NCBI RefSeq assembly: GCF_022846255.1
Contig: NZ_AP025682.1
DNA: 64,000 nucleotides
Reading direction: 5' to 3' (one strand)
Source of the DNA: Escherichia coli
GTDB lineage: Bacteria > Pseudomonadota > Gammaproteobacteria > Enterobacterales > Enterobacteriaceae
In this document: piece by piece, positions 21,001 through 24,000 of the stretch
Numbering within the stretch: position 1 is the first letter of the stretch
How the letters are laid out: each line of letters starts with the position of its first letter
Position numbers: made by a program

Positions 21001-24000
21001 TCGGAGACTTTAAAGGGTTTATCAGAAGGCTTGAGGGTGCGGATTTTTGCGTCGGTAAGGGATATATGGGGGTCACTCCATTATCGAACTAACCTGACCC
21101 CAGATTTGACCACCAATTTTTCCCGATGCGTAGGGTAAAATCAAAATGCACCGAGAAGAGTTTTCACACTAACCTGTTGAATCAACATCAGATAAAGATT
21201 CGCAAGGATGCAAGAAAACAGAAAATTGGCTCCTCTGACTGGACTCGAACCAGTGACATACGGATTAACAGTCCGCCGTTCTACCGACTGAACTACAGAG
21301 GAATCGTGAGAACGGGGCGCATATTACTTAGCGGTACCTTGTCTGTCAACACTAAATTTCATAAGCCATTTCAATTGGTTAATTAATCTGCAAAGTTGTT
21401 AATTAATGAACATTCGTCGCCGAAAACGAGTCTGTATCATTAGCGTGATGCAGTCTCTGCAAAGGATCTTGTTGATAAAATTGGCAGAAACGTTGCCACA
21501 ATGAAGGGAAACGAGGAGCAAAAAGTTCTGGGGCGCTAAAGAAATATTCAGAAAGTACGGCAAAACATTCAGCAGGATCACTGGCAGCATAAGCATCGAT
21601 GCTCGCCGCATTCTCGCCAACCAACTCGATTTCTTCCTGAATGTTGTTCATTGCAGCATGAAGATCGTGTTCCCAGCCAGCAACCTCACGCAACGGAATA
21701 AAGGGAACTCCGCTGGCGCGATCGCCGTTACGGGTGTCCAGCTTATGAGCGACTTCATGAATAATCAGGTTAAAACCAGAAGCATCAAAAGAATCTTGTA
21801 TATCCAACCAGTTCAAAACGATAGGCCCTTGCTGCCAGCTCTGACCTGACTGAACAATACGTTGGTTATGCACCAGACCGATATCGTCTTCCCATTCATC
21901 ATCGACCACAAATGGCGCAGGATAAATTAAGACTTCATGAAAACCATCCAGCCATTCCAGTCCTAACTCCAGAACGGGCAGGCAAAATAGAAGTGCTATC
22001 CGGCAGCTTCTTAATGAATTCAGCTCAAAGCCCTGTAAAGGAACAAGCCGTTTTTGCTGTAAAAAACGTTCGGCAAGAGTGACTAATTTGCTTTGTTCCT
22101 GTTCCGTCAGACACGTTAAAAGGGGGATCGATAGTGCTTCCTGCCAGGGAAGGGCAGTTTGATGTGCTGATTCTTGTACTTTCCAGGGCCACTTAATCAT
22201 CGTTTTGCTCGCAAACTCGTCACTTGAACAAAATTGCACGGACAGGGACTGTTAAAATGCCAAATTTCCTGGCATCATGGCAACCATCTGAACGGAGAGA
22301 TGCCGGAGCGGCTGAACGGACCGGTCTCGAAAACCGGAGTAGGGGCAACTCTACCGGGGGTTCAAATCCCCCTCTCTCCGCCACTTTATCAATGACTTAT
22401 CTCCCGACTTCCCGCCTTGCTTTTCCTAAACAGAACAATCGTAGAATATTCTTGAAGGGTTAGATCGTCACTGTTTTCTGTTCGATACTGTGACATTCAG
22501 CACTTGATTCGCTATGGGTCTGACAGGAAGGTTTCGAGCGAAAATCTACAGTTATTCAGTCGTTTTCTTATCGGTCACCATTATTCTTTTAGACATTGAT
22601 CCTATGAAACTGCCGCAAAGTTGCTGGCGGGAACTGAAGTTGCGTAGAGAAGGGGTCAATAATTGAGCCAAAAAAGGAACGCGGCCGTCAGATTAAAGCC
22701 GCGGGACAAAGTCCATAATTTCCAAGAGTTGTTGAATTTCCCAGCTTTTTTGAAAGCCTTTGTATCATACTAACAAGTAAAAAAGGTTTAAATACCAAAA
22801 TTAACCTATATTTCTGGTTAGCTTTACCATGACAGATGACTTGCTCCTGGAGACATTGGCGCAGCCAGTCTGTATTGGTGAGTTGTGTATTTATTGTTCG
22901 CCGTTTTCTCAGTTTTTTTCTACAGACATAATAAAAAAGACACGTCTCAAGCATGAGCGTGTCTGAGTTTGTCTTATTTATTTGTCTTGGTAAATTATTG
23001 TCGTTACTACCAGGCACTGTTCTGTTAAATAATTGAAGTCAGCGCAAAAAAATCAATGAGACATCATCTCCTCGACCACTTCTTTGCTACTCAACTGATA
23101 TGGATAATACGTTGGCCAGTTTTCCATTTCATTCAATAAAGACTGTTGGGTATCATTACCCATAAAAATGTGAAAATGAGATGATTTTCGTGGTGCAATT
23201 ATATGATCGCTAAATTGAATATATTTAGGGGCTTTGCTTTCAGGATCTTTACATTCGAATAAGTAACGAACGCCTTTCTTGCCTGATTTATAGGTGAGTA
23301 TTTTGTATCCATCGTAATCATATTTACAGGATGTTGTTTCATTATGTCTATGGAATTCAACAATGCCGTCCTCAATGCCAATCATCTCGATATCTGTCAC
23401 ATAACCTTTGCGATAATAATCTTTAATTTCAGCAAATGTTTTGGTTTTATCTGCATCCGCTTTCTTCTGAAAGACGGGGTCAAGTTTGCCACTTTGCAGT
23501 AAAGGATAAACGGATTGCCAGACTCCATCCCAGTCACTGAGCGTTCGGTTTTGTACATTGGTATCATCAAAAACACCATTAGCAGCTTTTTGTTCGACCT
23601 CTGTTAAGGGTTTGCCGTGTGAGTGATGACCATGCGAAAAGGCAGGAGCGCTAACAATAAAGACGCCTAAAGCAACAGCCAGTTTATGAAGACGAATCGC
23701 CAAAACAGTTTCCTCCAGAGTTAATGTACATGATGTATAATGTTATATTGTAACATATGGCGAAATGCAATAACTCTTAGGAAACGAGAGCATAGTTTTC
23801 TCAGGTGTATTTTCCTATCTTATTGAAATAAAATAAATTATTCTGGTGATGAAAGGTTGATGACAAACGAAACATAACTTGATGCGATCTGTGTGGGCCG
23901 GATAGGGCGCTCGCGCCGCATCCGGCCGGGATAACGCGTACTTTGTTGGCAATATGAAGTTATAGAGATAATTTGTTGTGAACCTGCTTGCGTAACTGGT

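What the first reader, a model, noticed from the sequence alone, without database searches (positions are those of the whole stretch)
22384..23052. Short AT-rich spacer between serU and zinT where I expect yodB
From memory of the K-12 map, a cytochrome b561 homologue (yodB, about 176 codons) lies between zinT and serU. Here the interval is only about 670 bp, AT-rich, and has no membrane-protein ORF; the only ORF is a low-complexity 109-codon frame overlapping the zinT terminator. That fits a clean loss or replacement of yodB in this lineage, a few hundred bp from the island insertion site.
Basis: partly seen in the sequence, partly recalled or inferred. Interest (0 to 1): 0.4.

Follow-up and report, generated by a model that had tools for sequence, protein, structure and literature searches.

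The report
Ancestral yodB-less zinT–serU spacer
The short gene-free stretch between serU and zinT is real, but it is the older of two common E. coli versions of this spot: this lineage most likely never had yodB, and K-12-type strains gained it.

Summary
serU ends at 22383 and zinT's stop codon lies at 23053-23055, on the minus strand. The 669 bp between them (39% GC) hold no YodB-like sequence and no conserved ORF. K-12 has 1442 bp here, including yodB.

The difference is a replacement, not a clean deletion. The 222 bp at window 22831-23052 stand where K-12 has an unrelated 995 bp that carry yodB. The breaks fall at the zinT stop codon and 447 bp from serU. Only the zinT terminator hairpin is recognisable in both versions.

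The two versions split E. coli: 2292 of 5426 complete genomes carry the 222-bp version and 3114 carry the yodB version.

The 222-bp version aligns collinearly with the E. albertii spacer across the junction (59% identity, z = 23.5). Five E. albertii genomes and one cryptic-clade Escherichia lack yodB. The K-12 segment does not align with E. albertii. YodB's closest non-E. coli relatives sit in prophages between the lysis and terminase genes. So absence is most likely ancestral, and yodB a horizontally acquired cassette in K-12-type lineages.

What is present in the window: an unoccupied serU integration site, AT-rich spacer DNA and the zinT terminator. This is ordinary and of low interest.

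The parts
22294..22383 (+). serU, tRNA-Ser(CGA). Its 3' end is an integration site that is unoccupied in this window.
   Evidence: ARAGORN and Rfam tRNA at 57 bits. In other genomes similarity to the window stops at 22383 or at about 22400, and an island or prophage with an integrase follows.
22384..22529 (.). The 146 bp next to serU, conserved across Escherichia. This is the chromosomal flank of the serU attachment site.
   Evidence: 93% identical in Escherichia sp. MOD1-EC7003 and 84% in E. albertii. In MOD1-EC7003 this stretch starts 8 bp after the zinT stop codon and is followed by a copy of the serU 3' end and a P4-like integrase gene.
22384..22830 (.). The 447-bp part of the spacer shared by both E. 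coli versions (96% identical to K-12, 99% to ST131).
   Evidence: blastn against K-12. Mismatch counts are: six of the 17 mismatches to K-12 fall in the 23 bp next to the junction.
22669..22780 (.). A stretch of about 112 bp present in E. coli (both versions) but absent from E. albertii. It holds a weak terminator-like hairpin on the minus strand (stem 22680-22703, U tract 22671-22676).
   Evidence: Gap in the MAFFT alignment. Fold energy -15.4 kcal/mol with z = -1.6, which is not significant.
22831..23052 (.). The 222-bp variable segment: the yodB-less version of the zinT 3' region, standing where K-12 has 995 bp with yodB.
   Evidence: No alignment with K-12 apart from the terminator hairpin. 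Present in 2292 of 5426 complete E. coli genomes at 93-100% identity. Homologous to E. albertii.
22933..22964 (-). The zinT intrinsic terminator: an 11-bp interrupted stem with a 4-nt loop, followed by UUUUU (22933-22937). The hairpin starts 88 nt after the stop codon.
   Evidence: RNA fold -17.9 kcal/mol, z = -3.4, 0 of 200 shuffles fold as well. The hairpin is conserved in ST131-type versions and in E. albertii, with changes that keep the stem.
22688..23017 (-). It is spurious.
   Evidence: Broken by frameshifts or deletion in three of five other yodB-less versions: 82 aa in L094, split 41 + 74 aa in L096, 58 aa in HS-02. No PHROG or NCBIfam match. No feature is annotated under the match in any of the RefSeq genomes listed.
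23053..23703 (-). zinT, the metal-binding protein ZinT. Similarity to K-12 resumes exactly at its stop codon.
   Evidence: ORF. 96.8% identical to K-12 up to the last base of the stop codon. Named by the K-12 and RefSeq annotations.

Best explanation
The interval is non-coding spacer DNA in the older of two long-standing E. coli versions of the zinT-serU region. From serU towards zinT it holds four things:
(a) the empty serU attachment site and its conserved 146-bp flank;
(b) about 300 bp of AT-rich spacer shared with K-12;
(c) a 222-bp zinT 3' region with no conserved ORF;
(d) within that region, a canonical Rho-independent terminator for zinT.

This lineage did not delete yodB. In the ancestor of the K-12-type lineages (K-12 and ATCC 8739, SE11, O157:H7) a 995-bp AT-rich segment replaced the ancestral zinT 3' region. 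That segment carries yodB and 88 bp of upstream sequence that yodB shares with prophage-borne copies. Only the terminator hairpin was kept.

Shown here: the anatomy, the population split, the homology with E. albertii, the absence of any yodB remnant, and the prophage context of YodB's closest relatives. Inferred: the direction of the change (gain rather than loss), and that the incoming cassette came from a phage.
For: Anatomy and break points.

Population split: the 222-bp version is in 2292 of 5426 genomes and the yodB version in 3114 of 5426, which is essentially complementary.

Outgroups: the E. albertii spacer (567 bp, no yodB) aligns collinearly with the window spacer across the 22830/22831 junction. 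The 222-bp segment gives 141/240 identical and z = 23.5. The first 222 bp of the K-12 segment give z = 1.5 and the last 230 bp give z = 0.0. Four more E. albertii genomes have the same spacer and give no YodB hit. A cryptic-clade Escherichia also lacks yodB. None of the 79 loci from organisms other than E. coli in the scan of one genome per species has a YodB homologue within 5 kb of zinT; the only two hits were E. coli-like contigs with 99-100% identical YodB.

Diversity within each version: the 222-bp version varies by up to 6.8% and the yodB segment mostly by 1.6% or less.

The yodB-less version sits on at least three local haplotypes that differ by about 1-5% over the flank segments compared.

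Origin of yodB: the closest non-E. coli homologues (72-77% aa identity) lie between the holin/lysozyme genes and the HNH/terminase genes of prophages. DNA similarity to these loci starts 88 bp upstream of yodB. YodB matches phrog_31729 over its full length at E = 5e-39. Homologues in Salmonella and in another Citrobacter sit at unrelated chromosomal sites.

No gene in the spacer. No Rfam family reaches its threshold other than the tRNA.
Against: Only one outgroup species, E. albertii, gives an alignable spacer. The cryptic-clade locus carries a large deletion. I could not retrieve E. fergusonii, E. marmotae or E. ruysiae.

I did not type phylogroups, so 'gain on the branch leading to K-12-type lineages' rests on a few named strains and on textbook phylogeny.

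Both versions keep the same terminator hairpin at the same offset (local score 32, reached by 2 of 1000 shuffles), yet the 90 bp between the zinT stop codon and the hairpin are unalignable. A single simple insertion does not explain this.

The direction of transfer between phages and E. coli is not established. Phages could have picked yodB up from a chromosome.

The yodB cassette lies 447 bp from serU, not at the attachment site, so it is not a plain remnant of a serU prophage.
Confidence: 0.76

Rival explanations
1. One reading: the ancestor of this lineage carried zinT-yodB-serU as K-12 does, and yodB was deleted or replaced locally, perhaps as a side effect of nearby HPI insertion.
For: K-12 and 3114 of 5426 genomes have yodB exactly here. 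The yodB-less state is strongly associated with the HPI integrase in the 60-row spread sample: among rows where the spacer runs straight on from serU, the 222-bp version has 15 rows with the integrase and 3 without, and the other version has 1 with and 21 without.
Against: A deletion cannot create 222 bp that are absent from K-12 yet homologous to E. albertii. No YodB remnant is present. HPI inserts at asnT, 1.2-1.6 kb away, with mtfA and serU intact in between. The yodB-less version is also found without the integrase and in all five E. albertii genomes examined.
Confidence: 0.07
2. Allelic replacement by hitch-hiking: this lineage once carried yodB, then received the HPI together with several kb of flanking DNA from a yodB-less donor by homologous recombination. 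That overwrote yodB with the ancestral-type version.
For: HPI spreads within E. coli together with its flank (yeeI, now mtfA) by RecA-dependent recombination (PMC2606025). Variants in zinT, mtfA, msrPQ and hprRS are associated with virulence, which the authors suggest may reflect proximity to the HPI and hitch-hiking (PMC7592755). There is strong association between the integrase and the 222-bp version. Divergence between the window and ST131 is lower left of 22830 (0.9-1.2%) than right of it (2.2-5.5%).
Against: The window's 41-kb flank is evenly about 2% from both K-12 and ST131, with no switch in which of the two it resembles near the spacer. The same is true for a second HPI-positive yodB-less strain, JL05, over 20 kb. 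The window's 222-bp segment differs by 5.4% from the ST131 one, so it is not a recent shared import.
Confidence: 0.12
3. The spacer hides a functional element, such as a small protein or a regulatory RNA, that takes the place of yodB in this version.
For: The 447-bp shared part is unusually conserved within E. coli (99% between the window and ST131, against 94.6% for the 222-bp part). A 45-codon ORF (22829-22966, plus strand) starts exactly at the junction and is intact in four of the six yodB-less spacers compared.
Against: No Rfam family other than the tRNA reaches its threshold. Promoter-like sites are no more frequent than in shuffled sequence (3 found, 4.2 expected). The 109-aa and 45-aa ORFs are disrupted in some genomes. 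No PHROG or NCBIfam match. No feature is annotated under the match in any RefSeq genome listed. No Shine-Dalgarno sequence is visible upstream of the 45-aa ORF (read directly from the sequence).
Confidence: 0.05

Closest known systems
E. coli K-12 zinT-yodB-serU interval (b1973-b1975, NC_000913 2042026-2043467)
   Same: The flanking genes and their orientation are the same. The 447 bp next to serU are 96% identical. zinT is 97% identical up to its stop codon. A homologous terminator hairpin lies about 90 nt after zinT.
   Different: K-12 has 995 bp, including the 531-bp yodB, where the window has an unrelated 222 bp. The K-12 hairpin is followed by GUAUAUUAAUAAG rather than a U tract.
E. albertii zinT-serU spacer (567 bp; NBRC 107761 and four other genomes)
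   Same: No yodB. It is collinear with the window spacer over its whole length, including across the 22830/22831 junction. The terminator hairpin is in the same place.
   Different: Identity is only about 60% in the 222-bp part and about 70% in the rest. It lacks the 112-bp E. coli-specific stretch at about 22669-22780.
tRNA-linked integration hot spots (islands and lambdoid prophages at serU, such as the island in B2 strain clone D i14, the O157:H7 prophage and phage SerU-LTIIb)
   Same: It is the same tRNA gene. In about 17 of 60 evenly sampled genomes similarity to the window ends at the 3' end of serU, and an element follows. An integrase gene follows in MOD1-EC7003 and O157:H7. In clone D i14 only the first 4 kb of the island were read and no integrase lies in that stretch.
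   Different: The site is empty in this window. The yodB polymorphism lies 447 bp beyond the attachment site and is not an integrase-mediated insertion at the tRNA.
Phage morons (independent cargo genes inserted between late genes of lambdoid prophages)
   Same: YodB's closest relatives outside E. coli sit alone and in the opposite orientation between the lysis cassette and the HNH/terminase genes of prophages. DNA similarity to these loci includes 88 bp upstream of the gene.
   Different: This concerns the K-12 version, not the window. In K-12 there are no phage genes around yodB. Whether the cassette carries its own promoter and terminator was not tested.

Membership tests
yodB / cytochrome b561 (PF01292) gene | An ORF of about 176 aa with detectable similarity to YodB or to PF01292 | tested here: not met
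   tblastn with K-12 YodB gives a best E of 0.28 in the whole window and only short chance-level matches inside the spacer. No ORF in the spacer matches PHROGs or NCBIfam.
yodB / cytochrome b561 (PF01292) gene | A decayed remnant (pseudogene) at the K-12 position | tested here: not met
   blastn-short and Smith-Waterman comparison of the 222 bp with the K-12 995 bp find only the terminator hairpin (K-12 segment positions 92-128), which lies upstream of yodB.
Rho-independent (intrinsic) terminator | A G+C-rich hairpin directly followed by a U tract, downstream of a stop codon on the same strand | tested here: met
   22933-22964 on the minus strand: an 11-bp stem, a 4-nt loop, then UUUUU, starting 88 nt after the zinT stop codon. 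Fold energy -17.9 kcal/mol, z = -3.4. The simple scanner missed it, presumably because of the bulge in the stem.
Rho-independent (intrinsic) terminator | Transcripts actually end there | not testable with these tools
   This needs term-seq or 3' RACE.
tRNA-gene attachment site for integrative elements (serU) | In other genomes foreign DNA with a tyrosine integrase is inserted at the 3' end of the same tRNA, with a duplicated tRNA 3' end at the far border | tested here: met
   O157:H7 has an integrase and lambdoid genes right after serU. Clone D i14 has an island right after serU. MOD1-EC7003 has a copy of the serU 3' end next to a P4-like integrase at the zinT-side border.
tRNA-gene attachment site for integrative elements (serU) | Occupied in this window | tested here: not met
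   serU is followed directly by the conserved 146-bp chromosomal flank, and no integrase lies between serU and zinT.
Phage moron (applies to the K-12 yodB cassette, considered as the origin of the alternative version) | Homologues occur as single cargo genes between late genes of prophages | tested here: met
   L082-L087 and L092: the cytochrome b gene lies between the lysozyme/holin genes and the HNH/terminase genes. PHROG 31729 match.
Phage moron (applies to the K-12 yodB cassette, considered as the origin of the alternative version) | The cassette carries its own promoter and terminator | not tested
   Only the shared 88-bp upstream region was seen. No promoter or terminator analysis of the K-12 segment was done.

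The most novel reading that the evidence does not exclude
The yodB gene of K-12-type E. coli is a domesticated prophage cargo gene. It replaced the ancestral zinT 3' region once, in the ancestor of the K-12, SE11 and O157:H7-type lineages. It landed behind a zinT terminator hairpin that had lost its U tract, so this cytochrome b561 may be read through from the zinc-regulated zinT promoter. The window shows the untouched ancestral state, which today travels in linkage with the HPI.
Probability: 0.3. Interest if true: 0.3.

Novelty: already known. Interest (0 to 1): 0.1.

Why it matters
It matters little for biology at large. The absence of yodB here is a normal state shared by 42% of complete E. 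coli genomes, not a lineage-specific lesion or a scar of island insertion.

There are three small practical points:
1. K-12 is the derived state at this locus, so 'missing relative to K-12' should not be read as loss.
2. Variants around zinT and mtfA, including this presence/absence difference, are in strong linkage with the HPI. They will therefore turn up in virulence association studies without being causal, as the authors of PMC7592755 themselves caution for hits near the HPI.
3. yodB is a candidate example of a phage cargo gene that became fixed in part of a species, which could guide work on its unknown function.

Tried and rejected
- Rfam at a permissive E-value over 22100-23900 gave only the tRNA. 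The hits to sX4 (25.6 bits, threshold 70) and rliB were far below threshold.
- The promoter and terminator consensus scan found no more sites than in shuffled sequence, and it missed the zinT terminator.
- The 109-aa, 50-aa and 45-aa ORFs gave no family matches. The 109-aa and 45-aa ORFs are also disrupted in some of the other yodB-less spacers; the 50-aa ORF is intact in all six.
- I looked for hidden homology between the 222-bp and 995-bp segments and found only the hairpin.
- I tested whether the spacer sits at the edge of an HPI-linked imported tract. Divergence profiles for the window (41 kb) and for JL05 (20 kb) against K-12 and ST131 are flat at about 2%, with no boundary.
- I tried to reach further Escherichia outgroups through ZinT homologues. 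Clustering at 90% identity lumps them together, and P0130 turned out to be a truncated E. coli ZinT at a K-12-type locus.
- Literature searches for yodB presence/absence found nothing specific, and 'serU' mostly matched the word 'serum'.
- I considered yodB as a remnant of a prophage integrated at serU. I rejected the simple form because 447 bp of native, E. albertii-collinear DNA separate yodB from the attachment site.
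Full report
1. What is in the window.
ARAGORN finds tRNA-Asn (asnT) at 21227-21302 on the minus strand and tRNA-Ser(CGA) (serU) at 22294-22383 on the plus strand. The ORF list gives these minus-strand genes:
- MtfA at 21403-22239;
- ZinT at 23053-23703;
- MsrQ at 23960-24595;
- MsrP at 24596-25600;
- a tyrosine integrase ending at 19803.

Window 16000-21302 is 99.5% identical to the ybtQ-ybtX-ybtS-int-asnT stretch of strain clone D i14, so the HPI is indeed inserted at asnT.

The interval 22384-23052 is 669 bp at 39.3% GC. That is not exceptional for this area: the zinT CDS is 39.0% GC and the zinT-msrQ intergenic region is 39.8%. The HPI boundary, however, lies about 1.16 kb from the spacer, not a few hundred bp.

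2. Comparison with K-12.
In MG1655 the order is zinT (b1973), yodB (b1974, 176 aa), serU (b1975), mtfA, asnT. The zinT-serU interval is 1442 bp. blastn gives two matches:
- window 22200-22830 matches K-12 at 97.3%;
- window 23053-23779 matches K-12 at 96.8%.

Between these, 222 bp of the window (22831-23052) face 995 bp of K-12. One break lies exactly after the zinT stop codon. The other lies 447 bp from serU, and there identity decays over about 25 bp.

The two segments cannot be aligned, with one exception. A hairpin, CAGACACGCUCAU...GACGUGUCU, lies about 90 nt after the stop codon in both. Only 2 of 1000 shuffles reach its local alignment score.

In the window the hairpin is followed by a run of U. 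It folds at -17.9 kcal/mol with z = -3.4, a canonical intrinsic terminator for zinT. In K-12 the U tract is missing.

tblastn with YodB finds nothing in the spacer or in the rest of the window. So this is a replacement of one sequence by another, not a clean deletion.

3. How common each version is.
Among 5426 complete E. coli genomes:
- 2292 carry the 222-bp segment, at 93-100% identity;
- 3114 carry the K-12 995-bp segment, nearly all at 98.4% identity or more;
- 5420 carry the shared 447-bp part.

The two versions are essentially complementary. K-12, ATCC 8739, SE11 and O157:H7 have yodB. ST131 has the 222-bp version. Clone D i14 has an island at serU, so its version was not read directly.

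No feature is annotated in the yodB-less spacer in any RefSeq genome listed.

It is not a gene.

4. Which state is older.
A scan of one genome per species with ZinT returned E. albertii and a cryptic-clade Escherichia as the closest outgroups.

In E. albertii the zinT-serU spacer is 567 bp with no yodB. MAFFT aligns it collinearly with the window's spacer over its whole length, and without a break across the 22830/22831 junction. Against shuffled sequence:
- the window's 222-bp segment versus E. albertii: 141/240 identical, z = 23.5;
- the first 222 bp of the K-12 segment versus the same E. albertii stretch: z = 1.5;
- the last 230 bp of the K-12 segment: z = 0.0.

Four more E. albertii genomes have the same spacer at 97.7-99.5% identity and give no YodB hit.

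The cryptic-clade genome has only 8 + 146 bp between zinT and a copy of the serU 3' end, followed by an island integrase, and again no yodB.

None of the 79 loci from organisms other than E. coli has a YodB homologue within 5 kb of zinT. The only two hits, L036 and L077, are E. coli-like contigs with 99-100% identical YodB.

Within E. coli the yodB-less version sits on at least three local haplotypes: the window, ST131, and JL05 with FDAARGOS_1302. Over the flank segments compared these differ by about 1-5%. The version itself varies by up to 6.8%, more than the yodB segment does.

Taken together, the window shows the ancestral arrangement and K-12 the derived one. I put this at about 0.75-0.8. 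The main weakness is that only one outgroup species gives an alignable spacer, and I did no formal phylogroup reconstruction.

5. Where yodB may have come from.
This concerns the alternative version and is inference. A protein search finds a gap between E. coli YodB (99-100% identity) and the next relatives (72-77%). Several of those relatives are encoded in prophages, as a lone opposite-strand gene between the holin/lysozyme/spanin genes and the HNH/terminase genes. They come from Citrobacter portucalensis, Hafnia paralvei and several unnamed samples.

Nucleotide similarity between K-12 and these loci (71%) starts 88 bp upstream of the yodB start codon. YodB matches phrog_31729 over its full length. 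Homologues in Salmonella and in another Citrobacter lie at unrelated chromosomal sites.

This patchy, mobile distribution fits acquisition of yodB as a moron-like cassette. It does not prove the direction of transfer. The cassette also lies 447 bp from the serU attachment site, so it is not a simple remnant of a serU prophage.

6. Other features of the spacer.
The serU end is a busy integration site. In a 60-row evenly spaced sample of all genomes, about 17 rows lose similarity to the window at 22383 or at about 22400. Examples are an island in clone D i14, a lambdoid prophage in O157:H7 and the deposited phage 'SerU-LTIIb'. In the window the site is empty.

An E. coli-specific stretch of about 112 bp (about 22669-22780) contains a weak hairpin followed by a U tract on the minus strand, but its fold is not significant (z = -1.6).

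Rfam finds nothing other than the tRNA.

7. Relation to the HPI.
In the same 60-row sample, restricted to rows where the spacer runs straight on from serU:
- the 222-bp version goes with the HPI integrase in 15 rows and lacks it in 3;
- the other version has the integrase in 1 row, plus 2 rows with a divergent integrase, and lacks it in 21.

This fits published work. HPI spreads with its flanks by homologous recombination (PMC2606025). zinT, mtfA, msrPQ and hprRS variants give virulence-association signals that the authors suggest may be due to proximity to the HPI, that is, hitch-hiking (PMC7592755).

I looked for an imported-tract boundary near the spacer and found none. The window's flank is evenly about 2% from both K-12 and ST131 for 41 kb, and JL05 behaves the same way over 20 kb. 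A hitch-hiking replacement in this particular lineage therefore stays possible but unsupported; I put it at about 0.12.

8. Verdict.
The 'loss' interpretation is not supported, because the polarity is reversed. The thing itself is ordinary non-coding spacer: an empty tRNA attachment site plus the zinT terminator. The arrangement can be seen in thousands of annotated genomes, so it is already known in substance. The only mildly new points are the polarity and the prophage link of yodB. Interest is low.

Noticed in passing
window 22383-22400 (3' end of serU): serU is a heavily used integration site. In about 17 of 60 evenly sampled complete genomes similarity to the window stops either exactly at 22383 (for example clone D i14, where an island follows) or at about 22400 (for example O157:H7 and SE11). 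In O157:H7 a lambdoid prophage integrase follows.
   Followed up: partly
L082 4001-4540, L085-L087 4001-4540, L092 969-1502 (prophage loci); K-12 L001 6369-6899: The closest non-E. coli relatives of YodB (72-77% aa identity) are lone opposite-strand genes between the lysis cassette and the HNH/terminase genes of prophages. YodB also matches phrog_31729, a family of unknown function. A cytochrome b561 as recurrent phage cargo seems not to have been described in the papers I could search.
   Followed up: partly
L001 6118-6154 (K-12, downstream of zinT) versus window 22933-22964: Both versions keep the same hairpin about 90 nt after zinT, but K-12 has GUAUAUUAAUAAG after it instead of a U tract, and the 90 bp before it are unalignable. 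This may allow read-through from zinT into yodB in K-12. The mosaic (conserved hairpin inside unrelated sequence) is not explained by a single insertion.
   Followed up: partly
L002 5649-6000 (Escherichia sp. MOD1-EC7003): In this cryptic-clade genome zinT is followed after 8 bp by the 146-bp serU flank, then a copy of the serU 3' end and a P4-like integrase. The rest of the spacer, about 520 bp in E. coli, is missing. This region is length-variable across the genus (about 155, 567, 669 and 1442 bp).
   Followed up: partly
L097 (strain HS-02), equivalent to window about 22862-22935: HS-02 is identical to the window across mtfA, serU, zinT and msrQ but has a 626-bp spacer with a rearranged or deleted stretch just serU-ward of the terminator. 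This shows ongoing turnover in the 222-bp segment.
   Followed up: no
window 29850-30440, 52400-54700 and 59000-62900: These stretches align poorly or not at all with K-12 and/or ST131. They correspond to the yedS-type porin gene, the fliE-yedK region (intG and yedN pseudogenes in K-12; emrE, ybcLM and an IS200 in ST131) and the fliD-fliC flagellin region. Elsewhere the window is evenly about 2% from both K-12 and ST131, so the strain belongs to a third deep lineage.
   Followed up: no
window 19803-21065 (minus strand): The HPI integrase reading frame is open over the full 420 codons, like that of clone D i14. The ORF finder reports only 347 aa because the annotated start is not ATG, GTG or TTG. 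JL05 has a frameshifted copy.
   Followed up: partly
window about 23725-23760: There is an AT-rich palindrome (ATGTTATATTGTAACAT) just upstream of zinT. It looks like the Zur operator expected for this zinc-regulated gene. That rests on my own knowledge of zinT regulation and was not tested here.
   Followed up: no
window 22384-22830 versus 22831-23052: Divergence between the window and ST131-type genomes jumps from 0.4-1.3% in the 447-bp part to 4.5-6.8% in the 222-bp part, exactly at the junction that also separates the two versions. Either constraint differs between the parts or the junction is a recurrent recombination break point.
   Followed up: no
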